Shown: piece by piece, positions 36,707 to 63,739 of the stretch | Numbering within the stretch: the first letter of the stretch is position 1 | Layout of the letters: every line of letters starts with the position of its first letter | Source of the DNA: a virus | Taxonomy: Duplodnaviria > Caudoviricetes | IMG/VR virus record: IMGVR_UViG_3300021387_000025 | Span: 55,956-119,955 of that record | Reading direction: 5' to 3' (one strand) | Length of the DNA stretch: 64,000 bases | Notes under the pieces: generated by a model | Database searches by the model: none | Told to the model about the DNA's origin: nothing | Seen by the model: the letters and a program-made list of their open reading frames with translations, nothing else | Made by a program: the position numbers and the translations under genes

Positions 36707-36708
36707 TT

Positions 36709-48455: not shown

Positions 48456-48460
48456 GCGAT

Positions 48461-49625: not shown

Positions 49626-49752
49626 TTCACGCCTACTTTCTTTTTCTCTTTCATTTTACATATATAATTATATTATAATTTTAAAAATTTTTCAAACTTT
49701 CAGAGAAAGAAAATTGTGGGAGTAGGAATTAATCCTACTCCCATTTCTGTGT

Positions 49753-49965
49753 TTACGGCGCCAGAAGTTCCTATTGGTCATTGTACTTTTTGCGACTTAC
49801 ACCAACAATAGCACCAATAAAAGTGGTAACAACCGCAATTGTACCAACAATTTCCTGCCCAAAAGGAAATCCCCAAATCTTGGCAATACCAAAATATAAG
49901 GCGCCGAGTGCTGGGAGAACAATTTCTCCGATGAATCTAATAATGTTAAAAACTTTATCGTTCAT
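49753..49965 (-). CDS. Holin (Dp-1-like)
   Basis: VLPALGALYFGIAKIWG..IVGTIA..TFIGA; a TAG at 49771 reads through to TAA at 49753. Confidence 0.8.
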
Positions 49966-49967
49966 TC

Positions 49968-50447: not shown

Positions 50448-50457
50448 TTTGCCCTCC

Positions 50458-50913
50458 TCACGCTGTTCTAGTTACGCTAAGAGTAGCGTTCTGAACGTCA
50501 ATTGGTTGAATTTCATAGCCCGCTTCTGTTGAAGCAGCGACATTTTCTACAGAGATTGAATTGCAGCATCCTTTTGGAACATCGACTGTTAAAACACAAG
50601 TTACATTAAAGTAATTGCCAACTGCTGCTGGAGTTACAATTGCACGGCTCACTTGAAATTCCTCTCCATCAATAGCGATTGCTACTGCAATAGGAACGAC
50701 TGTTGCGCCTTCAGCAAGGGCAATGTTGCCGTTGAATTCAATTTTGTAGCGCGCAAAGCAACAATATGGATTGTTGACGATACCTCTGAGAGTAACAATT
50801 CCACTTTCGTTTCTATGAAGAACATAGCCACGGTTACAGGGAATAGCATTGTTCAGTAAAACGTTGCCGTTTGGAGCAACTGTTTGTACTGGATTGTAAG
50901 TATACTCTGCCAT
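50458..50913 (-). CDS. BclA C-terminal-like beta-sandwich protein
   Basis: Cys-containing HRNESGIVTLRG..FNGNI..NATLSVTR. Fold inferred. Confidence 0.6.
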   Translation of the reverse strand: MAEYTYNPVQTVAPNGNVLLNNAIPCNRGYVLHRNESGIVTLRGIVNNPYCCFARYKIEFNGNIALAEGATVVPIAVAIAIDGEEFQVSRAIVTPAAVGNYFNVTCVLTVDVPKGCCNSISVENVAASTEAGYEIQPIDVQNATLSVTRTA

Positions 50914-51078
50914 TTTTAAAGGCCTCCTTTGGGGAATTTTTTATCGCTGATGAGCGATATTAAAGTTATATTTTATTTAATTACATTATTCTGAAAGCAT
51001 AAATATAAATATTACTATTCAATGCTTCGATCTATCACTTTCAATCAATCGCGTTTTGCTATGTAAGACTCCTTTCTG

Positions 51079-52506
51079 TTAAAAACCAGTCGCTAAAATA
51101 TCAACATTTATCACTGTTCCGTCCGCAGGAATAGATCCATCTGCCCCTCTTACATAAATAATAAAGTTGCCACCGGAAAATTGTACGGAAAACGAGTACC
51201 CAGCACTTGAGCCGGATGTATATCTGTGGGTTACCTGCACATTCCACGAAGATGATATACCGTAGTCGGAGGCAGGTAGTACAACCGCGCCAGAAGTGGG
51301 TGTTATGTTTACGTTAAAACGTTTAATTTTTCTTATAAACGATGTCAACTCCACATTGGTTTTACTGCCCGGCACATATTCCGCGTCCTCGATGCTTGCA
51401 GGACGGATCATCGGGCGGAAGATAAGATTGCTGACGGTTTGACCGCTTTTAATAATCAAATCATACACCATTAAATGTGACTGTACGATTTGCACTTGTG
51501 AACCGTTCCCGATATCTCTTTCAGAAGTAGATGAACCATCCCACGCTTTTGCCCTCGCCGATGTTGTTCCATCCCACAAAACAACATAGTATTTGGATTC
51601 TGATCCACCAGAGGGGCATCCTGTCAAATAATAATTTCCGTTCGGAATGGAGTTGTTCAGATTTATGGTTATTTCCGCGTCCCCGCTTGCTGTTCCGTTT
51701 GCCGTTATTGTTCCATCTGAATTCACGGTAAACGTGACCCCATTTTTTGTCTCTGTTGCGTTTATATTCACGAGCAGATTCTTACTCGGCACATCCTGCG
51801 CGTATATCACCCTGTCCGCTTCCAGCGACTTGCCGTTGATCGTGGTGGTCTTATAAGCCATACTATCGTCTAATTGACTAATTAAATTCATTTCCCATTC
51901 TCTATTAAACTCAACTTCATTAGTCAATTTAACATTATTATCCCAGTATGGAACATAAATACTATTTGTATCCGTTCCAACACGAATCATGGGTTTAAAA
52001 ATTACAGGAATTTCAGACGATCCTATAGTGGTCCCATCTTTTACAACTATCTGCCAATACTCTGCCTCTGCGGGACCCATTAAGCTATCGTTTCCAATGT
52101 GTACCTAAGTTCCGTTTCCTATATCTAAATCTGATGGAGTTGTTCCATCCCAAGATGGACTTCTCTCATCTCCATCCATACATCTAACATGAAAGGTGCT
52201 TGCAGATCCGCCAGAAGGGCAACCACTTAAATAGTAATTTCCTTCGGGAAGATAGTTTACATCGGGTAAGTGAGGTATTCCAATTGAATAAATTGCATCT
52301 CCATCTGTTGCGGTGCCATAAGCAGATATAGTTCCGTCTGCCGAATTAGCTTCAAAATAGACACCATTATACATCACACCACGCATACCTTCAATTTTCG
52401 TCTGTAATAAATTTTTACTCCAATTGTTTTGAGCAAAATCTCCAATAGTCTATTTAACACCTTGATGATATCTATTTAACCCATTGGCATCTAAAAATTC
52501 TGCCAT
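51079..52506 (-). CDS. Tail fibre/adhesin-like protein with duplicated domain, TAG-recoded
   Basis: ATG at 52506 joins 52105-52386 and 51079-52080 (475 aa); two KNLL..NGV.F..DGTI.A.GTA..GCPSGGS repeats. Confidence 0.7.
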
Positions 52507-52553
52507 TAATTTTGAAGTGGGGAGGGCTTTTCAGCCCTCCCGCTATTCAATTG

Positions 52554-53252
52554 TTAGGCTACAGAACCGCATCCGCAGCTGCTGTACCAGTTCTGGCCGC
52601 AGCAGTTAGGATTCTGTACCATATATGCAGGGATCGGAACAGGGTTAAGATACTGCTCAAGGGCCTGGGTCTGAGCCGCGTTGTCAGCAAGAATCTTAGC
52701 TGTCTGTGCCGTCTGAGAAGCCTGCATATTTGCAAGGTTGATTTGTGTCTGGAGATTTGCGTTCTGAGTCTTAAGCGCATCAATTTCTTGCTGGCAAAGC
52801 TTATCTAGTACAGTCTGAACGCTAGACTGAATAGCCTAACGTGTCTGCGCACCTTCGTTTGCCATTGTGTACTTAAGATCAGCAGTTGCCGCGCGATTTT
52901 CGCAGCAGCAATTCTGAAGGCTCATAGAAATGCCATTAAGAGCCTGAAGTGTGTTAGCTTGTGCATTGCAACGAGAAACTTCTGCATTTGCAAAACCGTT
53001 AGCAACAGTTGTATTAAGACCAGCAATACCATTGGTCAAAGCCGCCTAATCAAATCCATTCTGAATTGCGAAAGGCATTCCGTATCCACCCTGATAGCCA
53101 CCATTGTTACCCCAACCATTATTCATGAAGAATAAGAAAAGGATAATAAGCCACCAAGCGCCATCGTTGCCAAAACCAAAGCCATTGTTGCCATTGCCCA
53201 TGACAGCAGCCACATCAGCTGCAGAAAGGCCGTTTCCATCTGTTAAAGCCAT
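52554..53252 (-). CDS. Gly/Asn-rich, CCC-containing coiled-coil protein, TAG-recoded
   Basis: Joins 53046-53252 and 52836-53039 and continues to TAA at 52554 (232 aa); ends P.PAY.VQNPNCCG..GCG. Confidence 0.8.
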
Positions 53253-53280
53253 TTGCTTTAACCTCCTTGAAATATTTTTA

Positions 53281-53493
53281 TTAAGAGCCTCTTCTCCCTG
53301 TCAATTGATTTGCCATCTGACTAAATTGATTAAACTGCTCTTGAGTCATTTGGCCATTTTGAAGAAGTTCCTAAACTTTTTTCCGTGGATCTCCGCGAAA
53401 ATTATTCATAAACTGTTGAAATTGTTGAAATATATTTGAATTTTGATTCTGATTCTGATTCTAAGGGAACATATAAGATAAAGGATTAGGCAT
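53281..53493 (-). CDS. Gln/Asn-rich small protein, TAG-recoded
   Basis: 70 aa; GDPRKKVQELLQNGQMTQEQFNQ. Confidence 0.7.
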
Positions 53494-53825
53494 TATCTTT
53501 TCTCCTTGTAAGTCATTTGACTAATAAGTTGTTTTAATTCATCAATAGATTTGTTAAAAGTTTCAGAAGTGACATATTGTTCATTATTAGGCGTAGTTGG
53601 CGGCGCAGGCACAATCTCTTTAAATTCAAAGATCTTAAAAGAAGCAACCTCTCCGCTTAAAGTTGCGCTTTTAACATAAAAACGAGGGTTCTATCGCTCC
53701 ATAAAAAATCCAGTGGCTCCTGGCGCGACGTAAGCATTTCTAGCATCTAATTCTGTTTCAACCCATATAATAGGCGTAGTTACTGGATTACTATAAGTTG
53801 TATTATACGGATAATTTACTGCCAT
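53493..53825 (-). CDS. Hypothetical protein, TAG-recoded
   Basis: 110 aa; AYVAPG..FYVKS..YVT..F; TAATG coupling. Confidence 0.7.
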
Positions 53826-54208
53826 TATTTTTCTCCTTTCTTCCAATAATATATTGGTATTTCGTCTCCACTATTCCAAGTATCATAATAATTACCATCA
53901 ATTACAGCAATTACATGGCTACCAGTTGCGAGCAAAAATTTTCCTTTTGGTTTATCTTTACAAAAATCTCTAACTGTATAACAATATGGACAAGTATTTG
54001 GAATTACTTCTCTAACATAACCTCTTTTCTACAGATAAGAACTCCAAACAGCATTAGATGAAGGCATATCACATAACAATAAGCCTTCATTACAAATATC
54101 CATATAAATGTCTTCCCAATAACCATTCGTGAGAATACAAATGCCGCGTATTACACAGTCTCCAACAATATTGCGTATTGGATTTGGATTAGAATAAATA
54201 TAAGCCAT
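53825..54208 (-). CDS. Putative cysteine peptidase-like protein, TAG-recoded
   Basis: NPNP..GDCVIR, GSHVIAV and YYDTWNS suggest a Cys-His-Asp triad. Confidence 0.65.
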
Positions 54209-54291
54209 TAGCTACTCCATGTAAAGACATTGACAATTTTACCTATTTCTATTTATATTATAACCAAAATTTAATAAAAATTCAAATTTTT

Positions 54292-54615
54292 TCACAAGTC
54301 AAAAAAAATTTTATTGTCAATACAATAAAATTTAACGCGATCTGCATCTAAAGGGTCAAATAAGTTATAAGCTTCCCACTCATAACATTCATATATTTCC
54401 TCTTTAGGTACAAGACCGCGTATATCGTAAAAATCTTCGTCAATTTTGGTTATAAAGTGATTGTCAATAGCTAAATAATAAATAGTTCCTGTGAACTTGG
54501 CGGCCAAGGCATGCGCGAAGACATAACAATCACCATTCAAATATTTTTCTTCATATTTAAGTGGATCATCCTACTTAAAATTTTCAATGATTTGGAGTAT
54601 TTCTTTTTGATCCAT
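54292..54615 (-). CDS. Hypothetical protein, TAG-recoded
   Basis: ATG at 54615, one TAG, extends the track ORF; GDCY.FA..NHF..FYDI.G. Confidence 0.65.
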
Positions 54616-54989
54616 TAAAATTCCTCACAAAAGCGATCAATAAAATCGTTCGGATCATCATTAAACTTAATAACTAAATCATTAGTTGTGTATTCGCCAG
54701 CTAAACTTTCATTAATATACCAAATATCATATGCAACATCGTCGATACGATTTAAATCATAAAACTCTTCAACCGTCGAAACTTTTTCTTCCTGATCTTC
54801 GTATTCAGATTTTGCTCTATCATACAATTCATCATGAATTTCAATGTGTGTATCAATAATATATAATGATTCATGTTCTGCGATATCTATGACCTCTATG
54901 AAATCATCAACATCAACTATCATTCGTGTGTATATACCATTGCGCCCTTCGTTTAATTTATCATAAGCATAAATTGCATATCTACCCAT
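54615..54989 (-). CDS. Acidic hypothetical protein
   Basis: True start ATG at 54989 with AAGGAG; the track start overlaps tRNA-Gln. Confidence 0.7.
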   Translation of the reverse strand: MGRYAIYAYDKLNEGRNGIYTRMIVDVDDFIEVIDIAEHESLYIIDTHIEIHDELYDRAKSEYEDQEEKVSTVEEFYDLNRIDDVAYDIWYINESLAGEYTTNDLVIKFNDDPNDFIDRFCEEF

Positions 54990-55019
54990 AAATCTTACTC
55001 CTTTAAAATTGTGTATTAA

Positions 55020-55091
55020 CAGCCCCGGATAGAGTTGGACTATCTCCTTGTGGGTCAAAGCCACACGCGCTAACCGTTACGCAACAGGGCT
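55020..55091 (-). tRNA. tRNA-Gln(TTG)
   Basis: TGTGG-CTTTGAC-CCACA; atypical T-loop TCCAACT. Confidence 0.75.
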
Positions 55092-55094
55092 AAA

Positions 55095-55970
55095 ATAGCG
55101 GCTGGTAACCAACCTAACGGCCGCCGCTATAGCCGCGATCATTGTGCCAGATCGAAAGCGGAAGTTTAATCTGTAACTTCCAAGCCGCGCTTATCTTATC
55201 GAGTGACCGCGTCCACACGACTATGACTTTTAGGTATGAGAGCATAGCTTCTCTTAAAACTTAGCTTGGTACGCATAAATATATAGAGGCGTGCTAAGGG
55301 AAGCAGGGAAGAGTTGCGGAGGGATCATCGGCCTCTTGCTTCGGGTCATTATTATTGACAGGTACCTCAACGCCGTAGAGCGAATCAACTCCCTTATGCC
55401 TTTGGGCTAAGATTTCCTTATGGTCTACAGTTGATCAAAATGAGGATTTATGCTGCGTACACCTTATGTCAGCCAACCTACTTCAAAAAACCCAATTCAA
55501 TACAAGTAAATCCTTGGTAAAAAACCTATCGTTCTTTTGTTCAAAAAATACCTTAAACCTAATAGATTTGTTCGGAATTGGCCAGTCCACGCAGAATATT
55601 AAGGCAGGTAGCGGCTCGTGCCTCTATTAGGTAGTATAGCTAAGTAACGCTGAGCCACAGCGAAATTCGAATTCCTACGACACCCAGCCTATCGTAGTTT
55701 AATTTGGTTTAAAGTCTAGAGCTGGAGTGGACTATCAAAAGCCTTTAAGTGTGCATGTTATACAGAGGCCTAAAGGAGTATAAAATTGATCGGGTGTGCA
55801 GTCAGCTAACCTCGTTTAAACCACGAGCGCTTCAATCACACGCATCCCTGATGGATTTCACAACCTTAGCACTGGGACTTCCGGTTTACCCTGTTAAGTT
55901 GGTCCTTAATATGTTCCATCGTACGGGCCCCTATTGTCTTGGTAACTTTTTAATGCTTGTTTACCGATCA
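55095..55970 (-). ncRNA. Putative large structured non-coding RNA region
   Basis: About 880 nt without credible ORF, GC-richer, many helices (e.g. TGATCGG/CCGATCA), upstream of tRNA-Gln. Confidence 0.45.
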
Positions 55971-55974
55971 TCAA

Positions 55975-56226
55975 TTAATTAATTGGTTCGCCCCATTCTG
56001 CTTCTGTAAATCTTTTAGCCAGATCTTCAGTAATAGCAATCGGGCCTTCTTCAAGAGCACACATTTTCATAGAAACAATATTCTCTACTCCATACATATA
56101 TTCTAATTCATGAGTACAACTTGCGTAGTTTTTTGCGTTACAAATAGTCCATTCTTTTTTCTGATCATAAGTTTCTTCGTCAACATATTCTACTTCGCAG
56201 ATATACAACTTAGTTTTTGTTTTCAT
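55975..56226 (-). CDS. Hypothetical protein
   Basis: ATG at 56226 after AAAGGAG; promoter upstream. Confidence 0.7.
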   Translation of the reverse strand: MKTKTKLYICEVEYVDEETYDQKKEWTICNAKNYASCTHELEYMYGVENIVSMKMCALEEGPIAITEDLAKRFTEAEWGEPIN

Positions 56227-56287
56227 AAGTTCTCCTTTCATTTTCTAAATATATTATACTATATATTTAAAAGAAAATCAAATTTTA

Positions 56288-56360
56288 ATGCCGCGGTAGG
56301 ACTTGAACCTACGACCTCTCCCCTATATGGGAGCGCTCTATCCTTCTGAACTACACGGCG
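56288..56360 (-). tRNA. tRNA-like gene, undetermined anticodon (6-nt loop)
   Basis: Good D and T arms; CTCCC-ATATAG-GGGAG. Confidence 0.6.
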
Positions 56361-56672
56361 AATCTCCTTGTTTGTACTAAGGTTGGAGATAAAACCCGTT
56401 AGAAACTCTACAACTGCACTTGAAGTAGAGACGACGATTCCCAAAGGGAATAACTGCGTTGTTGGGATCAACACTTTACTTTCCCATCGTCTATTAATGC
56501 TACTTTCCGCGGCGGTGGTGACCATATTAACCACTTTTCGATTGTCACTTATAGGTGCGACCTATAGAGGTGGCGAGGACTACCAGTACTTTCCTCCCCT
56601 GCCGCTAGGCTTTCACTTACATTAAGCGGTTGCTTTTCTTAGATATCAATCCGAAAAGACTTACTGCCACAA

Positions 56673-56746
56673 TACGCCCCCAGGGAGTCGAACCCCGTGT
56701 CATCGGATATAAGCCGATTCCCCAAATACCGTCGAGGACAAGGCGC
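56673..56746 (-). tRNA. tRNA-Ile(TAT)
   Basis: ATCGG-CTTATAT-CCGAT. Confidence 0.75.
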
Positions 56747-56747
56747 G

Positions 56748-56830
56748 TGCAGGAAGCGGGACTTGAACCCACACGAGCGTACGCTCCGGCGCTTTTGAGG
56801 CGCCTGCCTCTCCCATTTAGCAATTCCTGC
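56748..56830 (-). tRNA. tRNA-Leu(CAA)
   Basis: GGCGC-CTCAAAA-GCGCC, long variable arm. Confidence 0.85.
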
Positions 56831-56834
56831 AAAA

Positions 56835-56917
56835 TCGGCCGGGTTGGACTCGAACCAACGATGTTTCTGGTGTGGCAAATTTACAGTCTGCTGCAGTCGC
56901 CGCTGTGCCACCGACCG
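56835..56917 (-). tRNA. tRNA-Tyr(GTA)
   Basis: GCAGA-CTGTAAA-TTTGC; C1:G72. Confidence 0.85.
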
Positions 56918-56924
56918 ATAAAAA

Positions 56925-56999
56925 TACCACAGGTGGGATTCGAACCCACACTTGTGCGATCTTAAGTCGCATGCCTGCTGCCAGTTGGGCTACTGTGGC
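56925..56999 (-). tRNA. tRNA-Leu(TAA), short variable loop
   Basis: TGCGA-CTTAAGA-TCGCA. Confidence 0.85.
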
Positions 57000-57002
57000 A
57001 AA

Positions 57003-57293
57003 TTATTTACTTTTACAGCATTTTAACCAATAACGATAAAAATCTTTTAAGGTAGGATAGCGATCTCTTAAATACTGATTATCGCCACGTTCCCATGAAG
57101 CTTTTGCTTCTTCCCAAGTCCAACGATTAATGAAATCATGAATATCCCAAGATTCGAAGACTTTTTTGTAAGCACCACCATTAGGCAAATCTTCTGTATT
57201 TCTAACTTTTTTATTGGCAAACTTTTTGCTTTCTTGTGTTGATCCAGGAGATCCATCTGTATAATATGGATTTTTCTTATATGATCTGCTCAT
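57003..57293 (-). CDS. Hypothetical protein
   Basis: MSRSYKK..KKFANKKVR..GGAYKK..WDI, AAGGAG RBS. Confidence 0.75.
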   Translation of the reverse strand: MSRSYKKNPYYTDGSPGSTQESKKFANKKVRNTEDLPNGGAYKKVFESWDIHDFINRWTWEEAKASWERGDNQYLRDRYPTLKDFYRYWLKCCKSK

Positions 57294-57307
57294 TTAATTC
57301 TCCTTTG

Positions 57308-57381
57308 TAACTCCTCGGGGAGTCGAACCCACGATTTTGACCTTGAAAGGGTCATGACCTAGCCATTTAGTCGAAGGAGTC
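57308..57381 (-). tRNA. tRNA-Glu(TTC)
   Basis: TGACC-CTTTCAA-GGTCA. Confidence 0.85.
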
Positions 57382-57384
57382 ATA

Positions 57385-57456
57385 AGCAAGTAGTGGGAAT
57401 TGAACCCGCATTTCAACTTTGGCAAAGTTGTGTAATGACCATTATACTATACCTGC
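57385..57456 (-). tRNA. tRNA-Gly(GCC)
   Basis: CAACT-TTGCCAA-AGTTG. Confidence 0.85.
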
Positions 57457-57554
57457 GCGCTAGTAGTTTCTTTGTAATGGGAAACGATCTATTAAAGACC
57501 ATAAGCGGTTTTGCCGGTAGCGACCCGACTACAGAAGGACACTCAGCCACCTCG

Positions 57555-57627
57555 TGCTTCCCGAGAGACTTGAACTCCCAACCTATGGCGTATGAAACCA
57601 TTGCGCTAACCATTGCGCCAGAGAAGC
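57555..57627 (-). tRNA. tRNA-Met/Ile2(CAT)
   Basis: ATGGT-TTCATAC-GCCAT. Confidence 0.85.
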
Positions 57628-57633
57628 TTAAAA

Positions 57634-57709
57634 ACTAATTGTGTAGGAATCGAACCTACCATCTTCACTGCTCGAGTGCTGCTGTGCATCCTTGCAAGCT
57701 CACAATTAG
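57634..57709 (-). tRNA. Atypical tRNA-like gene (8-bp acceptor, degenerate anticodon arm)
   Basis: CTAATTGT/ACAATTAG, canonical T arm, CAC-TCGAGCA-GTG. Confidence 0.45.
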
Positions 57710-58179
57710 TGAGGTCTGCGCAAACCTCGTGGTTTTCCTCAATACAGTTTCCTTGCTCTCCCGATGCTTTTATATACCGAGCCAGGATGGACGCGGTCTG
57801 GACTATCCAAATTTTTTTTGACTATACAATTTCCGTCTTACCAGATTCTTGTTTTACTTATGCTGGAACTTCTCGCAGGTCATGACTCCTGCATCAGATA
57901 TTAGGCAATCAATCTATAAGGTTTGCCAGGTCTACCCGAAATTGTGCACCCCGCGCGTCAAGGAATAGTCAAATATTCGTTTTTATACTTTTTGGTACGA
58001 ATAAACCTCACCTACAGCTGTCGTCGCTCACAAGACACAATATTAATCTCAGGCCCAGAGTTTCCTTATCCTGTTTCTATTAAAGTCACAATGCTTTAAT
58101 CTGTGGTCACTTAATATTGCCGCGCGGCCTCATCCGCGCCAGTCATATCCTGTCAATTCAGGCTTTATGTAGGTTGAAA

Positions 58180-58253
58180 CGTCCCGAGCGGGGATCGAAC
58201 CCGCGATCTCCAGGTTGACAGCCTGGTGTTCTAACCAACTGAACTATCGGCAC
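58180..58253 (-). tRNA. tRNA-Asp(GTC)
   Basis: CCAGG-CTGTCAA-CCTGG. Confidence 0.9.
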
Positions 58254-58478
58254 ATAAATAACTAGATTAACTTCAAACTAGTCTTGGAACTCCAGTATGC
58301 TGCAACTTCTGGCACTTTCCTTTCTCACTCTCACGGCTTGCAGACCGGAAGGAGGAAGCTTTTACCCCATACGCACCTCAGTTCTGTTTTCCCCATTATG
58401 CCTAGGGGTGTCCACCTATTACATATGTTTTTCTTAGGGCTTGCCGCGCTTGTCGCGTAAGGTGGCGGATCACCTCAG

Positions 58479-58579
58479 TAGCAGATGTAGGTATTGCACC
58501 TACCGAGAGATTTACGTCATATGGAGACAACTCACGGGCCATTGATGTCCGCCTGCCTCTTTAACAGTTTAATCTGCCA
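58479..58579 (-). tRNA. Atypical tRNA-like gene (Sec-like outline)
   Basis: TGGCAGAT/ATCTGCTA acceptor, GTAGG-TGCAATA-CCTAC, long extra arm, GGACATCAA anticodon region. Confidence 0.4.
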
Positions 58580-58580
58580 G

Positions 58581-58652
58581 TGGACACGGTGGGATTCGAA
58601 CCCAATCTTCCTGATTGCAAGTCAAGCGCTCTCCCAATTGAGCTACCGGCCC
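58581..58652 (-). tRNA. tRNA-Ala(TGC)
   Basis: CTTGA-CTTGCAA-TCAGG; G3:U70. Confidence 0.85.
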
Positions 58653-58756
58653 ATATTCCATTTTTGTTCTTAGAAGAGAATGGTAACTCCACCTGGTCTT
58701 ACAACAGTTCAGTTTAAAGTCCTAACTGGGATGGCAGCAAACTATAAAGGACTAAA

Positions 58757-58830
58757 CGGCCCCTCACGGACTTGAACCGCGGACCTCTCGCTTAACAGGC
58801 GCTCGCTCTAACCAACTGAGCTAAGGGGCC
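58757..58830 (-). tRNA. tRNA-Asn(GTT)
   Basis: CGC-CTGTTAA-GCG; GGCCCCT/AGGGGCC acceptor. Confidence 0.85.
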
Positions 58831-58833
58831 AGA

Positions 58834-58907
58834 TACCCCAAGTAGGATTCGAACCCGCACTAAACAGATCCTAAGTCTGTCGCCTCTACCATTTGGGCTA
58901 TTAGGGC
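58834..58907 (-). tRNA. tRNA-Leu(TAG), short variable loop
   Basis: ACAGA-CTTAGGA-TCTGT. Confidence 0.85.
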
Positions 58908-59035
58908 AAATTAAACGCATTGGTTATTGTTCCACTATCAACTACTTACAGGGTCCTCTTACCCAAGCCAATTTATTTATTTCTCTCTCACTTTCTATAA
59001 ATATTATATAATATTTATAAAAAAATATCAAATTT

Positions 59036-59824
59036 TTATTCTTCTATTTTTCTTAAATATGGTTCGTGTGACATAACATCAGATACATATTTTGCATTAT
59101 AGGCGCCATAATCACTTTGCATATGACGAGAAATCATTTCATACACATCAAGTCCCATATTCGCCCTATTTGCCATATTTTCTGTAAATACATCAATTTG
59201 TGCATATGGATCAAAAATATCTCCACGATTCCAATCCCAAAATCTCATTCGAAACTAAAATAAACCATAATCGAGACCATCATTAGAAACATCATACTAA
59301 TTAAATTGCGATTCCTACCACGCGATCATAATTGCATACGGCATAAACCATTCAATTTCATAATCTTGCAATTTCTCATACAAATAAATTTGAATATCTA
59401 AACTTAATGTCTCCGTGCCAACAGCATATATTTCAATTTTTTCTTCGGATGAAATAGTATCATTAGAATCTATTTCTTTCTACTGTTCTTTTTCTTTTAT
59501 CTTTCGTACCAATGAACTCTTGAAAAAATCAATTCGTTCTCTTTTATAAATCGAAGTTGTGAACGCCATCTCTTTGGAGCAAGAATCCTCCAATGACTTG
59601 TCTTCCTCTAAAGACTTTTTCTCCACTTCTGTCTCTAAGTCATATTCTCGACTTTCTTCTTCAACTAACGTCTATTCATAAATTTTATACCACTCCTAAA
59701 ACTATTCAGGATTTTCACAAGGCATCCCACTTTTATATGGTTTTCGCGCCATGTAAGGCAGTATATAAGAAAATAACATAAAAAATAATAATACTAATGC
59801 AATTATTTTTTTAATTAGATTCAT
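59036..59824 (-). CDS. Membrane-anchored lytic transglycosylase (SLT-like), TAG-recoded
   Basis: 262 aa; N-terminal hydrophobic anchor; IAW[TAG]ESQFN..DYGLF[TAG]F corresponds to the QES and GLFQ motifs. Confidence 0.75.
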
Positions 59825-59963
59825 TTTTCTTCTTCTTTTCCCACTCCTTACAAGAATTATTTTTATTAACATTTTCATAAGAAAGAGGAGACTTGAAATT
59901 TTTACAAAGATTATTTTTGTAATAGAAACAATTAGAACAATTACAAATAGTAATATTATCCAT
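59811..59963 (-). CDS. Small Cys-rich protein
   Basis: ATG at 59963 after AAAGGAG; the rest of the track ORF overlaps tRNAs. Confidence 0.55.
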   Translation of the reverse strand: MDNITICNCSNCFYYKNNLCKNFKSPLSYENVNKNNSCKEWEKKKKNESN

Positions 59964-59984
59964 ATTATACTCCTTTCTTAGTAA

Positions 59985-60055
59985 TAGAAAACGTCGGATT
60001 CGAACCGCGACTCCGCATCCCAAATGCGGTGTGTTACCATTACACCACGTTCTCT
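59985..60055 (-). tRNA. tRNA-Pro(TGG)
   Basis: CCGCA-TTTGGGA-TGCGG. Confidence 0.8.
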
Positions 60056-60060
60056 TTAAA

Positions 60061-60166
60061 TTCGGGCAAGGATTTGCACCTTGCATGGCATACGGCGTTT
60101 GCCACCGTTCCAATTTCCTTCGTTGTAGGTCTATATACTGTTGCGTCTACCTATTCCGCCACCGAA
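60061..60166 (-). tRNA. Atypical Leu-like tRNA-like gene with expanded centre
   Basis: Leu-type D arm GGCGGAATAGGTAGACGC, T arm with TGCAAAT loop, no regular anticodon arm. Confidence 0.45.
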
Positions 60167-60237
60167 AGTATCTGACGGGAATTGAACCCGCACCCACAGC
60201 TTGGAAGGCTATTACGCTACCATTACGCCACAGATAC
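60167..60237 (-). tRNA. tRNA-Gly(TCC)
   Basis: ATAGC-CTTCCAA-GCTGT. Confidence 0.85.
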
Positions 60238-60240
60238 ATA

Positions 60241-60316
60241 CACGAGCAGTAGGATTCGAACCTACACCGCAAACCGTTTAAGGGATTGCATTACTACCAC
60301 TTCATACTATGCTCGC
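60241..60316 (-). tRNA. Atypical tRNA, anticodon TAA in an extended stem
   Basis: GCAATCC-CTTAAAC-GGTTTGC; G73. Confidence 0.55.
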
Positions 60317-60318
60317 AG

Positions 60319-60391
60319 AGCCGGCGAAGGGAGTCGAACCCTTAACCTACTGATTACAGGTCAGTTGCGCTGCCAATTGCGCCACGCCGGC
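60319..60391 (-). tRNA. tRNA-Thr(TGT)
   Basis: ACTGA-CCTGTAA-TCAGT. Confidence 0.9.
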
Positions 60392-60531
60392 ATATTGTGC
60401 GGCCCAACCCGCACAGGCAGAGATCTTTCTCTGGAGTTTCCCAACTTTTTTAAAGTCCACTGACTGACGTGCCTCGAAAAGGGCTAATAAGAAACAAAGC
60501 TTCGATATTTGGACGCCAACAACATTCAGTA

Positions 60532-60855
60532 TTAGGTGGTGGAACTTATAATATAGTCATATACTTCTTCAGTAGAATAAAAATGAATTTCTTCCTTGTT
60601 TGCATCAGTGTAAGGCATTGTTATAAATTCTCCTCCGGCAGTAAAAATCCAATAGTCAAGCGGAGTACCAAACCAATTATCATACATATCGTCTGAAAAT
60701 TCACATAATTTATCAACTAAAGTGTAATAACCATCAAACCAATTATCAAAAACACATTCTGACACTTCAAAATGAGAAGTAATTTCACAAATCTTTTTGT
60801 GCATAGAAACAAGATTGTCTACGTTTTCAACAAACTGCTCTTTTGTCAATTTCAT
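60532..60855 (-). CDS. Hypothetical protein
   Basis: Track ORF with RBS. Confidence 0.7.
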   Translation of the reverse strand: MKLTKEQFVENVDNLVSMHKKICEITSHFEVSECVFDNWFDGYYTLVDKLCEFSDDMYDNWFGTPLDYWIFTAGGEFITMPYTDANKEEIHFYSTEEVYDYIISSTT

Positions 60856-60894
60856 TAAAACTTTTTTCCTCTCACTTATTATGTAAATATTATA

Positions 60895-61563
60895 TTATAA
60901 ATTTCTAATTTTTTCAAGTGTTTTATAATGATAATTTTTTGTTTCTGAAAGAATACCTACTTTAATTAATATACCTAAATTAATTGGCATCCACTCAATA
61001 TTATCCGCAGCTAAATTGATATGAGCCATATCAGGTACTGCTGGTGCATTATGAACATGCCCATGAATATTTATACAAATATCTTCAAGTCCATAAATAG
61101 GCTCGTGCGAAAGCAAAATACGATCAGCAATAAATAGCGGCCCGTTATAAACCTCATCAAAATATCCTGTTCTGGCATAAACTGCCACTTTTAAACCATG
61201 TTCTTCACCTATATAAAGCTCTTTATTAGTCTGTATTAGTTTTTTTGCGTCATCAGGATATAGAAAATCTAAAAACTGTCCTCCCTTTAAATAGTTAGAC
61301 ACTCCAGAATCATGATTTCCAGTAATCAAAACTTTATAACAATTAAATCTATTAAAATATTTTGGATCTCCAACATCGCCAAGACAAATTAATGTATCAT
61401 TTTTTCCAATTCTTGGTTTAATATTTTTTATATAAGTTTCAGGATCGGGCCAATTAGGATTCATAATTTTACAATCTGGATCGTCAAAATGAGGGTCACT
61501 AATAATCCAAATAGCGCCTTTTTCTGCCCATGATTGAAATTTTGGATATAATGATTTAATCAT
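60895..61563 (-). CDS. Calcineurin-like metallophosphoesterase
   Basis: SDPHF, LGDVG, GNHD, SHEP and HGHVH motifs. Confidence 0.85.
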   Translation of the reverse strand: MIKSLYPKFQSWAEKGAIWIISDPHFDDPDCKIMNPNWPDPETYIKNIKPRIGKNDTLICLGDVGDPKYFNRFNCYKVLITGNHDSGVSNYLKGGQFLDFLYPDDAKKLIQTNKELYIGEEHGLKVAVYARTGYFDEVYNGPLFIADRILLSHEPIYGLEDICINIHGHVHNAPAVPDMAHINLAADNIEWMPINLGILIKVGILSETKNYHYKTLEKIRNL

Positions 61564-61573
61564 AAATTCTCCT

Positions 61574-61846
61574 TTATTTTGCTGTCGCTGTTTCTGATTT
61601 TATTGAGCCTGGTTCAACTGCAGTTCCTTCGGCATAAGTTACGCCTTGCGCGCAAGTTATTTTATCCCAATTTGGAAAATATGGATCATCCCAAGTTGGA
61701 TAATATGGATAAGAAAAATCAGTACAAAAACTACCTGTACGATCACAAATTCCACAAGGAAGCCTATACTTACAAGTAGAGTTAAAATTTGTTTTTAATG
61801 TATATGATTTTGAAGTTGAAGTTGAAGTTGTATTATCTTCTCTCAT
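61574..61846 (-). CDS. Hypothetical protein
   Basis: AAGGAGG RBS; CKYRLPCGIC. Confidence 0.7.
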   Translation of the reverse strand: MREDNTTSTSTSKSYTLKTNFNSTCKYRLPCGICDRTGSFCTDFSYPYYPTWDDPYFPNWDKITCAQGVTYAEGTAVEPGSIKSETATAK

Positions 61847-61866
61847 TTTTATTCCTCCTTAGTTTA

Positions 61867-61954
61867 CGGAAAGGGCGGGATTTGAACCCGCGCACCGCGC
61901 AAACAGCCTAACGCCTTAGCAGGGCGTCCTCTTCAACCACTTGAGTACCTTTCC
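61867..61954 (-). tRNA. tRNA-Ser(GCT)
   Basis: ACGCC-CTGCTAA-GGCGT, long variable arm. Confidence 0.9.
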
Positions 61955-61957
61955 ATA

Positions 61958-62030
61958 TGGCTGGAGTTGGAGTCGAACCAACGTGAGTGGATTTTCAGTC
62001 CACCGCCCCGACCGCGTAGACCATCCAGCC
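61958..62030 (-). tRNA. tRNA-Phe(GAA)
   Basis: GTGGA-CTGAAAA-TCCAC. Confidence 0.85.
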
Positions 62031-62034
62031 ATAA

Positions 62035-62105
62035 AGACAATGATAGGATTTGAACCTATAATCACTGGGTTGCAACCAGCCGCCTTGCCATTTGGCTACA
62101 TTGCC
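62035..62105 (-). tRNA. tRNA-Cys(GCA)
   Basis: GCTGG-TTGCAAC-CCAGT; U73. Confidence 0.9.
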
Positions 62106-62108
62106 TTA

Positions 62109-62194
62109 CGACAGGGGAGGGATTCGAACCCTCGGTGCGTTTCCGCACACTGATTTTCAAGACCAGCTCCATAAGCCAGCTAGGAGACCCTGCC
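62109..62194 (-). tRNA. tRNA-Ser(TGA)
   Basis: CTGGT-CTTGAAA-ATCAG, long variable arm. Confidence 0.85.
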
Positions 62195-62199
62195 ATTGA

Positions 62200-62532
62200 T
62201 TAAAGTTTAGCACAAATAGAACTCAAATGCTCAAGAGCCATACGAAATTCAGTAAAAGAATCATCAACATAAGACTTCAACGAATCATACTTTGCGCTCA
62301 TTTCATTTGTCTTTTCAACCCATTCAATATATTTTTCCATTGCTCGATTATTACGTTTCTGCGCCACCTTTACTGCACAACGCGCCGCCGCCAAACGTTT
62401 GCCTGTCTCTTCGTCAAACGTATCTCTTGGATCACATTTAGCAATTCCACGTACAGTTTTACCTGCATAGGTTGTCACTGCTACAACAATACCATGTTCT
62501 TTACTTACATAATACTTATAATTGTCAAACAT
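62200..62532 (-). CDS. Hypothetical protein
   Basis: TYAGKTVRGIAKCDPRDTFDEETGKRLA, a recurrent phage family. Confidence 0.75.
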   Translation of the reverse strand: MFDNYKYYVSKEHGIVVAVTTYAGKTVRGIAKCDPRDTFDEETGKRLAAARCAVKVAQKRNNRAMEKYIEWVEKTNEMSAKYDSLKSYVDDSFTEFRMALEHLSSICAKL

Positions 62533-62563
62533 ATTTTATTCCTTTCATTTTTAATTTTATAGA

Positions 62564-62635
62564 TCTTCTCGGCACGAATCAAACGCGCATCTTCGGTTCC
62601 GTAGACCGACGTTTTTTCCTTTATACTACGAGAAG
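62564..62635 (-). tRNA. tRNA-Arg(ACG)
   Basis: TCGGT-CTACGGA-ACCGA; T-loop TTTGATT. Confidence 0.75.
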
Positions 62636-62638
62636 TCA

Positions 62639-62709
62639 GGTGACTAGAGGGGATTGAACCCTCACCTTCAGATCCACAATCTGAGGCACTACCATTATGC
62701 AATAGTCAC
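62639..62709 (-). tRNA. tRNA-His(GTG)
   Basis: TCAGA-TTGTGGA-TCTGA; C73. Confidence 0.85.
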
Positions 62710-62711
62710 AG

Positions 62712-62785
62712 TAGGGATGATGGGATTCGAACCCATGATTTTTCGCGTATCAGACGAATGCTCTAACCAACTGAACTACATCCCA
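62712..62785 (-). tRNA. tRNA-Ile(GAT)
   Basis: TTCGT-CTGATAC-GCGAA. Confidence 0.9.
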
Positions 62786-62800
62786 TTGTTTATGTTGCAA

Positions 62801-62872
62801 TCTGCGCGATAGGAATCGAACCTATATTGACGGATTAGAAGTCCGTGGCGTTATCCATTACACCACGCGCAG
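62801..62872 (-). tRNA. tRNA-Arg(TCT)
   Basis: ACGGA-CTTCTAA-TCCGT. Confidence 0.85.
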
Positions 62873-62875
62873 TTG

Positions 62876-62948
62876 TACGCGTGGTGGGATTTGAACCCAC
62901 GACCAATAGATTAAGAGTCTACTGCTCTACCAACTGAGCCACACGCGC
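62876..62948 (-). tRNA. tRNA-Lys(CTT)
   Basis: GTAGA-CTCTTAA-TCTAT. Confidence 0.9.
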
Positions 62949-62952
62949 ATGA

Positions 62953-63024
62953 TCTGCGTGATGAGACTCGAACTCACAACTCACAGATTAAAAGTCTGTT
63001 ACTCTTCCTTTGAGTTACACGCAG
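62953..63024 (-). tRNA. tRNA-Lys(TTT)
   Basis: ACAGA-CTTTTAA-TCTGT. Confidence 0.85.
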
Positions 63025-63069
63025 TTAAATTATTCAATTTTAAAACTTTTAACCTGTTTTCGTTTCATT

Positions 63070-63282
63070 CTATTCTCCTTCTTGAAAATCAGTTTTCCAT
63101 TCTTCTTTAGAATAAAAACCGTTATTTAAATTTGCTTTCTGCCAAGAATTTTGGTCTTTTTGACGGCCTTGACTGTCAACCAATTCTCCGCAAACACCAC
63201 CATAAATTACTAATATGTCTTTATTGCAAAATTTGCCGCCATTAAATTTACATTGAATATTATTACATACGATTGAATTCAT
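63070..63282 (-). CDS. Small Cys-rich protein
   Basis: ATG at 63282 just after the suppressor tRNA, whose 3' acceptor strand (GGGGG) could act as RBS; ends in TAG (may read through). Confidence 0.55.
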   Translation of the reverse strand: MNSIVCNNIQCKFNGGKFCNKDILVIYGGVCGELVDSQGRQKDQNSWQKANLNNGFYSKEEWKTDFQEGE

Positions 63283-63284
63283 AA

Positions 63285-63372
63285 CACCCCCTGTGGGACT
63301 CGAACCCACCCTACCCACTTCAGAGGTGTTACGGTTTTAGAGACCGGTGCGCTACCACTACGCTAAGGGGGA
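63285..63372 (-). tRNA. Amber suppressor tRNA(CTA) with long variable arm
   Basis: CGGT-CTCTAAA-ACCG anticodon arm, CCCCCT/AGGGGG acceptor, GTGGG-TTCGAGT-CCCAC, G73. Confidence 0.85.
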
Positions 63373-63377: not shown

Positions 63378-63692
63378 TCACCTATTATTTATTAATTGCC
63401 CATTAAGCAAAACACTATCGTCACCAAACCATAGATTTGCAAAATCAGCTAAACTTTTATTTTCTCCAGCATCAAATTCTATCTAATCCGGCACGACATA
63501 AGTATCTAAATATCGAGCATAAGCTAACCAGCATAATTCAGTAGTATTTATGCTCTTTTTTTCTACTTTTTCGCGCCGCATCCTTATAAAAGTATCATTA
63601 TACAAATTTGCCCATTGATTAATAACAATAGGTTTTATCTTCCATGCCTCAAAAGATTTTCCAACATCAATTACCATTAATTTTACTTCCAA
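63378..63692 (-). CDS. Hypothetical protein, TAG-recoded
   Basis: Track ORF extends through TAG at 63483 to TGA at 63378, 5 nt before the suppressor tRNA; start codon uncertain. Confidence 0.55.
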
Positions 63693-63739
63693 CTTTATTT
63701 TATATACATATTATATATAAATTTTAATAAAAAATCAAG

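What the first reader, a model, noticed from the sequence alone, without database searches (positions are those of the whole stretch)
63285..63372. Amber suppressor tRNA with an unexpected long variable arm
Seen: anticodon CTA, U1:U72 mismatch and G73 (Gln-like identity), but a ~21-nt extra arm typical of Ser/Leu/Tyr tRNAs. It heads the tRNA cluster, 5 nt after a gene that itself needs TAG read-through. Inference: an unusual scaffold that may need a phage-encoded synthetase and could be orthogonal; its position suggests possible feedback on its own expression.
Basis: partly seen in the sequence, partly recalled or inferred. Interest (0 to 1): 0.75.

Follow-up and report, generated by a model that had tools for sequence, protein, structure and literature searches.

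The report
Stop-codon tRNA with spare glutamine anticodon
This phage reads the stop codon UAG as glutamine through a single tRNA of its own, and that tRNA's odd extra arm is a small hairpin showing the normal glutamine anticodon loop, which may be how the host's glutamine-loading enzyme is made to accept a stop-codon reader.

Summary
Window 63285-63372 (-) is a real 88-nt tRNA with anticodon CUA, a U1·U72 mismatch, G73 and a 21-nt variable region. It is the only tRNA(CUA) in a complete 119,955-bp phage with 306 in-frame TAGs.

TAG means glutamine. At 62 TAG sites, relatives carry CAA or CAG 1269 times and Ser codons 169 times. The residue profile matches that of true Gln codons (44.2% against 44.8% Q).

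The tRNA is not a Ser/Leu/Tyr-type scaffold. Its D arm is class-I and Gln-like. It belongs to a phage-only family of 30 aligned sequences with a weak or mismatched 1:72 pair and an invariant G73.

The extra arm is a 2-5 bp hairpin with a 7-nt loop, N-U-Y-U-G-A-N. Here it is CAC[CUCUGAA]GUG, the tRNA's own anticodon loop with A36 changed to G36. That makes it a glutamine (CUG/UUG) anticodon loop.

In an independent set, all 13 non-Sec long-arm tRNA(UCA) show UCCAA, the Trp anticodon loop. Ordinary Ser/Leu/Tyr arms show neither motif.

The phage encodes no Glu/GlnRS, GatB, RF or class IIa synthetase. Host charging through a surrogate anticodon is therefore my best reading (inferred, untested).

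This scan noted the same design earlier on other phage DNA. I found no paper describing it in nature.

The parts
63285..63372 (-). Amber suppressor tRNA(CUA), 88 nt, 7/5 cloverleaf, U1.U72, G73, no encoded CCA
   Evidence: ARAGORN; Rfam RF00005 52.5 bits; the cloverleaf holds in 93% of cells, with covariation in the acceptor, D, extra-arm and T helices (the anticodon stem was fixed by the search pattern), across 30 family members
63338..63340 (-). Decoding anticodon CUA, in loop CUCUAAA
63310..63330 (-). 21-nt variable region (the 'long variable arm')
   Evidence: read from the sequence
63316..63328 (-). Extra-arm hairpin CAC[CUCUGAA]GUG: a 3-bp stem and a 7-nt loop that copies a tRNA-Gln(CUG) anticodon loop
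   Evidence: This register holds in 30/30 family members. The second closing pair covaries (C:G 22, U:A 4, G:C 3, A:U 1). Coordinates.
63321..63323 (-). Pseudo-anticodon CUG (Gln) on the extra arm
   Evidence: YUG is invariant in 30/30 sequences and the only change at the first base is C to U, so both forms are Gln anticodons. TYTGA occurs in 27/30 long tRNA(CUA), in 1 of more than 60 ordinary Ser/Leu/Tyr arms and in 0/24 tRNA(UCA).
63378..63692 (-). Upstream ORF, 104 codons, one in-frame TAG (63483-63485), TGA stop 5 nt before the tRNA; function unknown
   Evidence: no Pfam or PHROG match
63710..63738 (-). Sigma-70-like promoter candidate TTGATT-17-TATAAT (10/12) upstream of the ORF and the tRNA cluster
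   Evidence: the number of such sites is not above shuffled expectation, so this is weak evidence
63049..63279 (-). Small downstream ORF (about 76 codons, one TAG near its end) between the suppressor and tRNA-Lys
   Evidence: no family match
48460..63372 (-). Cluster of 29 tRNA genes headed by the suppressor; it holds every tRNA of the genome

Best explanation
This is the phage's own glutamine-inserting amber suppressor tRNA. It is the single adaptor that lets a complete 120-kb phage with genetic code 15 translate its roughly 300 in-frame UAG codons, most of them in structural and late genes, in a host that uses the standard code. Its body is a class-I, Gln-like tRNA. The 1:72 pair is weak (here U.U), and G73 and G10:C25 are present. 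The D stem is the same as that of the phage's tRNA-Gln(UUG). The CUA arm reads UAG on the ribosome. The 'long variable arm' is not a Ser/Leu/Tyr arm. It is a small hairpin whose 7-nt loop, CUCUGAA, equals the tRNA's own anticodon loop with A36 turned back into G36. In other words, it is a tRNA-Gln(CUG) anticodon loop. I infer that this spare loop gives the host's glutamine-charging enzyme the anticodon determinant (G36) that a UAG reader cannot carry. The enzyme is most likely GlnRS. In a host without GlnRS it would be non-discriminating GluRS followed by GatCAB. On this reading, amino-acid identity and decoding are carried by two separate arms. Shown: it is a real tRNA, it is the only CUA tRNA in the genome, TAG means Gln, and the loop motif and its hairpin are conserved and covary. 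Also shown: UGA suppressors carry the parallel Trp motif, and the phage has no synthetase. Inferred: that a synthetase reads the extra loop, and which enzyme does so.
For: tRNA calls agree at the reported coordinates. It is the only CUA tRNA in the complete genome (ARAGORN; Infernal). The genome has 306 in-frame TAGs, including ORFs of 2807 aa with 59 TAGs and 1634 aa with 37 TAGs, and every selected ORF ends in TAA or TGA. At 62 TAG sites, 80 related loci carry CAA 936 times, CAG 333 times and all Ser codons together 169 times. The aligned-residue profile equals that of true Gln codons, and Gln is the best-fitting amino acid by more than 2800 log-likelihood units. In the 30-member family, the 1:72 pair is never G:C or C:G, and G73 and G10:C25 are invariant. 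The extra arm has a 7-nt loop N-U-Y-U-G-A-N in 30/30 members. The first base of the triplet varies only between C and U, and the closing pair shows full Watson-Crick covariation. In a scan that set no condition on the arm, all 13 non-Sec long-arm tRNA(UCA) carry UCCAA, the Trp anticodon loop. The motifs are reciprocal and are essentially absent from Ser/Leu/Tyr arms. The phage has no Glu/GlnRS, class IIa aaRS, GatB or RF domain. Rumen Lachnospiraceae, Butyrivibrio and Clostridiales genomes carry a GlnRS-type gene (PF03950, ORFs of 554-587 aa). Bacterial Gln identity includes G73, U1-A72, G10, U35 and G36, and an amber tRNA-Ser, which has a long arm, was converted to Gln identity by changes in the acceptor stem (review PMC9976931). 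An engineered pseudo-anticodon placed in the V-arm of amber suppressors enhanced aminoacylation (Mukai 2020, PMC7590224).
Against: There is no experimental evidence. In this particular tRNA the hairpin has only 3 bp, and the nearest-neighbour model scores the pseudo-anticodon register 1 to 2.5 kcal/mol worse than two other registers. The register therefore rests on comparative data. The arm is not required for TAG-to-Gln recoding. The closest TerL relative (91% identity) uses a 73-nt suppressor with a full Gln acceptor stem and no extra arm, and phAss-1-like phages carry a short and a long suppressor side by side. It is unknown whether the anticodon-binding domain of a monomeric GlnRS can reach a loop that leaves the tRNA core at positions 44-48. 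The family was collected with an exact 17-mer of the anticodon arm, so its members are related and part of the conservation is shared ancestry. The host, and hence its charging pathway, is not identified.
Confidence: 0.6

Rival explanations
1. It is an ordinary glutamine amber suppressor, charged through its acceptor end, U35 and G10 alone, as E. coli supE is. On this view the extra arm is a relic of an anticodon-arm duplication or serves another purpose. That purpose could be blocking class II synthetases such as LysRS that misread CUA tRNAs, acting as a decoy or shield against tRNA-directed nucleases, stabilising the fold, or binding a modification enzyme.
For: Close relatives manage with short suppressors that lack the arm. 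Amber suppressors with a Gln-type acceptor stem are charged by GlnRS without G36 (PMC9976931). The extra loop differs from the real anticodon loop at one base, as a recent duplication would.
Against: The motif stays fixed while 15 of the 16 acceptor, D and T stem pairs have changed with compensation. The only change at the first triplet base is between the two Gln anticodons. An unrelated set of UGA suppressors shows the Trp anticodon in the same place. A relic or a generic shield would not track the amino acid in this way.
Confidence: 0.25
2. The spare anticodon is read by the indirect pathway. A non-discriminating GluRS accepts the tRNA through the UUG/CUG loop, and GatCAB then converts Glu to Gln, because the host lacks GlnRS.
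For: Relatives of this phage infect Bacillota, and many Bacillota lack GlnRS; the B. subtilis and L. lactis controls are negative. GatCAB and GluRS2 rely on the 1:72 position (PMC9976931).
Against: The rumen Lachnospiraceae, Butyrivibrio and Clostridiales genomes tested do have a GlnRS-type gene. The spare triplet is CUG in 23 of 30 members, whereas GluRS of B. subtilis depends mainly on a modified U34. This tRNA has U1.U72, not the U1-A72 pair used by the amidotransferase.
Confidence: 0.12
3. It is a class II (Ser, Leu or Tyr type) suppressor whose long arm directs SerRS, LeuRS or TyrRS, so that UAG is read as Ser, Leu or Tyr.
For: It has a long extra arm, and G73 is shared with bacterial tRNA-Ser. 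Other long-arm CUA tRNAs with a class II body do exist in phages (L100).
Against: TAG sites align with Gln codons, and the profile matches true Gln codons, with Ser more than 3600 log-likelihood units worse. The D arm is class I. The acceptor has C2:G71 rather than the G2:C71 of tRNA-Ser. A73, needed for Leu and Tyr, is absent.
Confidence: 0.03
4. This is the first reader's reading: an orthogonal scaffold that needs a phage-encoded synthetase, with feedback from the TAG-containing upstream gene.
For: The scaffold is unusual, and some recoded phages do encode synthetases (TrpRS in Jade phages; Borges preprint).
Against: The complete genome has no Glu/GlnRS, class IIa synthetase, GatB or RF domain. 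The upstream ORF has no recognisable function or homologues.
Confidence: 0.04

Closest known systems
Phage-encoded tRNA-Sup(CUA) of TAG-to-Gln (code 15) phages: phAss-1 group, crAss-like, Lak, Agate and others (PMC10607447; Borges preprint 10.1101/2021.08.26.457843; PMC9523058)
   Same: It is a phage tRNA with anticodon CUA in a genome whose late genes are full of in-frame TAG read as Gln, with no phage GlnRS. phAss-1 itself carries an 88-nt homologue (L001 2989-3076).
   Different: Those papers list the genes and their anticodons only. I found no description of the extra arm or its Gln anticodon loop. In this genome the long-arm form is the sole suppressor.
E. coli supE (tRNA-Gln with anticodon CUA) and Gln-accepting amber suppressors (su+7 tRNA-Trp CUA; amber tRNA-Ser with changed 1:72 and 3:70)
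   Same: Weak 1:72 pair, G73, G10, C34 and U35. All are charged with Gln even though A36 replaces G36 (identity set and history in PMC9976931).
   Different: Those tRNAs have no second anticodon-like loop. This tRNA has C2:G71 and C3:G70 where E. coli has G2:C71 and G3:C70.
Engineered amber-suppressor tRNAs with a pseudo-anticodon arm in the V-arm (Mukai 2020, PMC7590224, section 2.6)
   Same: The design is the same: the decoding anticodon is CUA and a V-arm hairpin shows the cognate sense anticodon to recruit a synthetase. The effect on aminoacylation was measured in E. coli.
   Different: Those tRNAs are synthetic, built on an allo-tRNA chassis for HisRS, and needed a synthetase fused to an extra anticodon-binding domain. 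This one is natural, on a 7/5 class-I body, for Gln, and presumably works with an unmodified host enzyme.
Class II tRNAs (bacterial Ser, Leu, Tyr; Sec) and nematode V-arm tRNAs (recalled from memory, not checked here)
   Same: A variable region longer than 10 nt that forms a hairpin.
   Different: 4-bp D stem with a small D loop, a short stem on long single-stranded linkers, a 7-nt anticodon-like loop, and Gln decoding.
Anticodon-arm mimics in mRNAs read by synthetases (E. coli thrS operator; yeast aaRS mRNAs; PMC9976931, PMC6542539)
   Same: A hairpin outside a tRNA's decoding arm shows an anticodon loop that a synthetase recognises.
   Different: Those mimics regulate translation of the synthetase mRNA. 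Here the mimic sits inside a tRNA and would serve charging.

Membership tests
tRNA (Rfam RF00005) | Cloverleaf scoring above the curated threshold | tested here: met
   52.5 bits against a gathering score of 29. 93% of cells are paired, and 17 of 25 pairs show a change on both sides (none in the anticodon stem, which the search pattern fixed), across 30 homologues.
Phage code-15 suppressor tRNA-Sup(CUA) | Anticodon CUA in a phage genome with in-frame TAG codons | tested here: met
Phage code-15 suppressor tRNA-Sup(CUA) | TAG corresponds to glutamine | tested here: met
   CAA plus CAG 1269 of 2869 aligned sense codons. The profile equals that of true Gln codons.
Bacterial tRNA-Gln identity set (G73, U1-A72, G2-C71, G3-C70, G10, U35, G36, A37, U38; PMC9976931) | G73, weak 1:72 pair, G10, U35, A37 | tested here: met
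   G73, U1.U72, G10:C25, U35 and A37 are read in the sequence. G73 and G10:C25 are invariant in the family, and 1:72 is never G:C or C:G.
Bacterial tRNA-Gln identity set (G73, U1-A72, G2-C71, G3-C70, G10, U35, G36, A37, U38; PMC9976931) | G2-C71, G3-C70, and G36 and U38 in the decoding arm | tested here: not met
   This tRNA has C2:G71, C3:G70, A36 and A38. G36 is present only in the extra-arm loop CUCUGAA.
Class II tRNA of Ser/Leu/Tyr type | Long variable arm | tested here: met
   21-nt variable region
Class II tRNA of Ser/Leu/Tyr type | 3-bp D stem with an enlarged D loop; A73 for Leu/Tyr or G2:C71 for Ser; decoding as that amino acid | tested here: not met
   4-bp D stem with a 7-nt loop, against 3-bp stems with larger D loops (8-11 nt) in the phage's own Ser/Tyr tRNAs. 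It has G73 and C2:G71. TAG sites behave as Gln, not Ser, Leu or Tyr.
tRNA-Pyl (the label ARAGORN gives to any CUA anticodon) | 3-nt variable loop, very small D loop, no G18G19 or T-loop consensus; pylS in the genome | tested here: not met
   21-nt variable region, and G18G19 and GUUCGAGUC are present. The Pyl features are from my own knowledge. pylS was not searched for.
tRNA-Sec / allo-tRNA | 8/5, 9/4, 8/4 or 9/3 acceptor/T-stem arrangement | tested here: not met
   7-bp acceptor and 5-bp T stem. The Sec-like tRNA(UCA) found look different and lack the anticodon-like loop.
Pseudo-anticodon V-arm tRNA (design of Mukai 2020) | V-arm hairpin that shows the cognate sense anticodon in an anticodon-like 7-nt loop | tested here: met
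   CAC[CUCUGAA]GUG. Family-wide conservation and covariation, and the Trp counterpart in UGA suppressors.
Pseudo-anticodon V-arm tRNA (design of Mukai 2020) | The pseudo-anticodon raises aminoacylation by the cognate synthetase | not testable with these tools
   This needs aminoacylation assays or reporter suppression with loop mutants.

The most novel reading that the evidence does not exclude
Phages have evolved tRNAs that separate identity from decoding. A spare anticodon arm in the variable region shows the sense anticodon (CUG/UUG for Gln, CCA for Trp, possibly GAU for Ile) to an unmodified host synthetase, while the main arm reads a stop or otherwise non-cognate codon. This would be a general natural route to codon reassignment that needs no new enzyme.
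Probability: 0.5. Interest if true: 0.9.

Novelty: new variant of a known kind. Interest (0 to 1): 0.78.

Why it matters
An open question for recoded phages is how a stop-codon reader gets charged by a host synthetase that normally checks the anticodon. The Borges preprint states this explicitly.

A spare cognate anticodon on the extra arm would be a simple answer, and it can be tested directly with transcripts and purified GlnRS or TrpRS.

It would also be a natural precedent for an idea so far only engineered (PMC7590224): a tRNA whose decoding anticodon can be changed freely while its amino-acid identity is kept. That is useful for genetic code expansion.

For annotation, the motif gives a sequence-only way to predict which amino acid a phage suppressor tRNA carries.

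Tried and rejected
- **BLAST of the tRNA against relatives.** BLASTN of the 88-nt tRNA against five complete or near-complete relatives found nothing. A covariance model (R1) showed why: they carry different, short CUA tRNAs.
- **Bacterial genomes.** The 17-mer scan of 185,579 species genomes gave 29 hits. 27 are chance matches outside any tRNA. The other two are tRNA-rich contigs binned into MAGs that look like phage DNA. No host could be named from this.
- **Flanking ORFs.** Pfam and PHROG searches of the two flanking ORFs, and tBLASTN against all loci held, gave nothing.
- **Nearby RNA elements.** An Rfam search at E up to 1 around the tRNA found no ribozyme (such as theta/HDV-like) or other RNA beside it.
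- **Folding energy.** Minimum-free-energy folding does not single out the cloverleaf (z = -0.35) or the pseudo-anticodon register. The structure rests on covariation.
- **Alternative arm registers.** I first scored the arm as a 4-bp stem with a 5-nt loop. I dropped that register because its closing pair fails in 5 of 30 sequences, including this one. The 7-nt-loop register holds in all 30.
- **Shine-Dalgarno resemblance.** I considered that GGAGGU in the 3' strand of the arm mimics a Shine-Dalgarno sequence. I rejected this because the window's own copy reads GUGGGU.
- **Odd tRNA at 56288-56360.** I checked it as a possible alternative UAG reader. Its loop is AUAUAG, not CUA.
- **Literature.** Searches for a natural pseudo-anticodon or dual-anticodon suppressor found only the engineered case.

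Full report
**1. The observation**

ARAGORN places a tRNA at 63285-63372 on the minus strand with anticodon CUA. It labels the gene 'Pyl' only because of that anticodon. The Rfam tRNA model matches the same coordinates end to end at 52.5 bits, against a gathering score of 29.

Reading the sequence gives the following:
- The acceptor stem is UCCCCCU/AGGGGGU, with a U1.U72 mismatch and G73. There is no encoded CCA.
- The D arm is GCGU-AGUGGUA-GCGC.
- The anticodon arm is CCGGU-CUCUAAA-ACCGU, with a C27.U43 mismatch.
- The variable region is 21 nt.
- The T arm is GUGGG-UUCGAGU-CCCAC.

It is the first of 29 minus-strand tRNA genes. It begins 5 nt after the TGA stop of a 104-codon ORF (63378-63692) that has one in-frame TAG.

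**2. The genome and the meaning of TAG**

The window is the right-hand part of a complete 119,955-bp phage genome with direct terminal repeats and 36% G+C.

When only TAA and TGA are read as stops, 114 non-overlapping ORFs cover 80% of the genome and contain 306 in-frame TAGs. They include ORFs of 2807 aa (59 TAGs) and 1634 aa (37 TAGs). Every one of the 114 ends in TAA or TGA.

Portal, large terminase, PhoH and other late or structural genes carry TAGs. The large terminase places the phage with Bacillota phages and with the code-15 phage phAss-1.

To find the amino acid, I aligned all ORFs, with X at each TAG, against 80 related IMG/VR loci and read the codon opposite each X. At 62 TAG sites the partners are:
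- CAA, 936 times
- CAG, 333 times
- TAG, 210 times
- all six Ser codons together, 169 times

CAA is two mutations away from TAG, so this reflects selection and not mutational proximity. As a control, the residues opposite TAG (44.2% Q, then E, K, A, R, T, S) match those opposite true Gln codons in the same alignments (44.8% Q, then E, K, A, R). Gln is the best-fitting amino acid by more than 2800 log-likelihood units, and this holds in every identity band. TAG is glutamine.

**3. Only one reader of UAG, and no phage charging enzyme**

ARAGORN finds 29 tRNAs and Infernal 28 in the whole genome. All lie in the same cluster, and only this one has CUA. An odd tRNA-like gene at 56288-56360 has the loop AUAUAG, not CUA.

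Six-frame searches of the genome found none of the following. Each search was positive in the control genomes expected to carry the domain.
- the Glu/GlnRS catalytic domain
- the class IIa synthetase core
- GatB
- the release-factor domain

The tRNA must therefore be charged by host enzymes.

**4. What kind of tRNA it is**

A 17-mer of the anticodon arm retrieved 44 IMG/VR contigs holding 51 CUA tRNAs. About 40 of these are 88-95 nt long.

The same scan over one genome for each of 185,579 prokaryote species gave only two real tRNA hits. Both are on short, tRNA-rich contigs binned into MAGs. The family is therefore phage-borne.

In an alignment of 30 distinct members (A1):
- The cloverleaf is kept in 93% of cells.
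- Compensatory changes occur in all 7 acceptor pairs, 3 of 4 D pairs and all 5 T pairs.
- G73 and G10:C25 are invariant.
- The 1:72 pair is U:A (10), A:U (5), G.U or U.G (2) or a mismatch (13). It is never G:C or C:G.

These are the acceptor-side features of bacterial glutamine identity: G73, a weak U1-A72 pair and G10 (review PMC9976931). The D stem is the same as in the phage's own tRNA-Gln(UUG), and the D arm is class I in size. The phage's Ser and Tyr tRNAs instead have 3-bp D stems and larger D loops (8-11 nt). The body is Gln-like, not Ser/Leu/Tyr-like.

**5. The extra arm**

A note from earlier agents of this scan, on other phage DNA, said that such arms copy the glutamine anticodon loop. 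I treated that as a lead and tested it here.

I anchored the 30 variable regions on the shared motif. Every one can form a hairpin of 2-5 bp (usually 3) closing a 7-nt loop N-U-Y-U-G-A-N. The loops are CUCUGAA (20), CUUUGAA (5) and five single variants.
- U35-like and G36-like positions are invariant.
- The 34-like position is only C or U, giving the two Gln anticodons.
- The second closing pair shows full Watson-Crick covariation (C:G 22, U:A 4, G:C 3, A:U 1) with no mismatch.

The alternative register with a 5-nt loop fails at its closing pair in 5 of 30 sequences, including this one.

In the window the hairpin is CAC[CUCUGAA]GUG at 63316-63328. Its loop is the tRNA's own anticodon loop, CUCUAAA, with A36 replaced by G36.

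One caveat applies. The energy model scores this register 1 to 2.5 kcal/mol worse than two others for this sequence. The register rests on comparison across the family, not on thermodynamics.

**6. An independent test**

If the arm shows the cognate sense anticodon, then UGA-to-Trp suppressors with long arms should show CCA. I scanned IMG/VR for an anticodon loop CTTCAAA followed 26-38 nt later by a T loop. This sets no condition on the arm itself.

Of 24 distinct long tRNA(UCA):
- 11 look like tRNA-Sec and have no such motif.
- All 13 others carry [G/C]UCCAA in a hairpin loop. In some it is a perfect 5-bp stem with a 7-nt loop, a copy of a tRNA-Trp anticodon arm. These 13 sit on diverse acceptor stems and D arms.

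Across all long tRNAs in my loci:

| tRNA class | n | TYTGA in arm | TCCAA in arm |
|---|---|---|---|
| tRNA(CUA) | 30 | 27 | 0 |
| tRNA(UCA) | 24 | 0 | 13 |
| Ordinary Ser/Leu/Tyr | more than 60 | 1 | 0 |

The triplet on the arm tracks the amino acid assigned to the stop codon.

**7. Mechanism**

Shown:
- A single phage tRNA with a Gln-type acceptor end reads UAG.
- UAG is Gln.
- There is no phage synthetase.
- The extra arm is a conserved, covarying hairpin with a Gln anticodon loop.

Inferred: the spare loop supplies the anticodon determinants, above all G36, which contributes to binding and recognition by GlnRS. A UAG reader cannot carry these in its decoding arm. With the spare loop, a host enzyme would charge the tRNA with Gln.

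Rumen Lachnospiraceae, Butyrivibrio and Clostridiales genomes each have a GlnRS-type gene, and class I enzymes leave the variable side of the tRNA free (my own knowledge). The indirect GluRS/GatCAB route remains possible because the host is unknown.

An engineered precedent exists. Amber suppressors given a pseudo-anticodon V-arm were charged better by a matching synthetase (PMC7590224).

Against a strict requirement for the arm: the nearest relative by terminase (91% identity) uses a 73-nt suppressor with the full UGGGGUA Gln acceptor stem and no arm. phAss-1-like phages carry both forms in tandem. The arm may therefore compensate for bodies that lack part of the acceptor-stem identity. This one has C2:G71 and C3:G70. 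That correlation is not clean across the family.

My confidence levels are:
- about 0.9 that this is the functional Gln suppressor
- about 0.8 that the arm is a selected mimic of the Gln anticodon loop
- about 0.55-0.6 that a synthetase reads it

**8.

'Gln-like identity on an unusual scaffold' holds. 'May need a phage-encoded synthetase, could be orthogonal' is not supported, and the arm points the other way, towards use of the host enzyme.

'Feedback on its own expression' has no support:
- The upstream ORF has no family or homologue.
- The only promoter-like site (63738-63710) lies upstream of the ORF, and such sites are no more frequent there than in shuffles.
- No terminator or known RNA element lies next to the tRNA.

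**9. Novelty**

Suppressor tRNAs of code-15 phages are known. The papers I could read list them without comment on structure. Six full-text searches found no natural tRNA with a pseudo-anticodon arm.

This scan has reported the same design before on other phage genomes. I reproduced it independently here and added the control counts. I class it as a new variant of a known kind.

Noticed in passing
window 48638-49232 (-): ROOL RNA (Rfam RF03087, 257.6 bits, full length 1-574) lies inside the tRNA operon, next to tRNA-Met.
   Followed up: partly
window 56288-56360 (-): A tRNA-like gene (Rfam tRNA 42.6 bits) has a 6-nt anticodon loop AUAUAG, and ARAGORN cannot assign an anticodon. It is not a UAG reader.
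   Followed up: partly
L276:1500-1572 and L278:393-468 (relatives G001, G003): Close relatives by terminase carry short tRNA(CUA) of 73 and 76 nt without the extra arm. G001 has TerL 91% identical to the window's, and its suppressor has the canonical Gln acceptor UGGGGUA/UACCCCA with G73. The suppressor type has therefore been exchanged within this phage group.
   Followed up: partly
L278:1501-1591; L157 c[5587,5674]: Two long-arm tRNAs with sense anticodons were seen. A 91-nt tRNA(UAU) has the extra arm CGC[CAGAUUA]GCG, which shows GAU, the standard Ile anticodon. An 88-nt tRNA(CAU) has an arm that shows CCCAUAA. The 'cognate anticodon on the extra arm' rule may extend beyond stop-codon readers.
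   Followed up: no
L100:3799-3886: A long-arm tRNA(CUA) has G1:C72, G73, a class II D arm and no YUG loop. It is probably a Ser-type amber suppressor and so a different design in another phage.
   Followed up: no
L201:1370-1467 and L270:12-109: A 98-nt tRNA(UCA) has the extra arm ACCGU[CUCCAAA]ACGGU, a full 5-bp/7-nt copy of a tRNA-Trp anticodon arm. ARAGORN cannot decide which arm is the anticodon arm.
   Followed up: partly
L001 2911-2982 and 2989-3076 (phAss-1, OQ749652.1): phAss-1 and at least six related contigs carry a short (72-75 nt, U1.C72, G73) and a long (88-91 nt, A1:U72, G73) tRNA(CUA) a few nt apart (3-6 nt). Both are annotated only as tRNA-Sup-CTA.
   Followed up: partly
whole genome G000 (window offset +55955): TAG is absent from large blocks of the genome (for example ORFs at genome 19255-29833, and the 1330-aa ORF at 33201-37193). 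It is dense in the structural block at genome 44393-72767, which fits amber gating of late genes.
   Followed up: no
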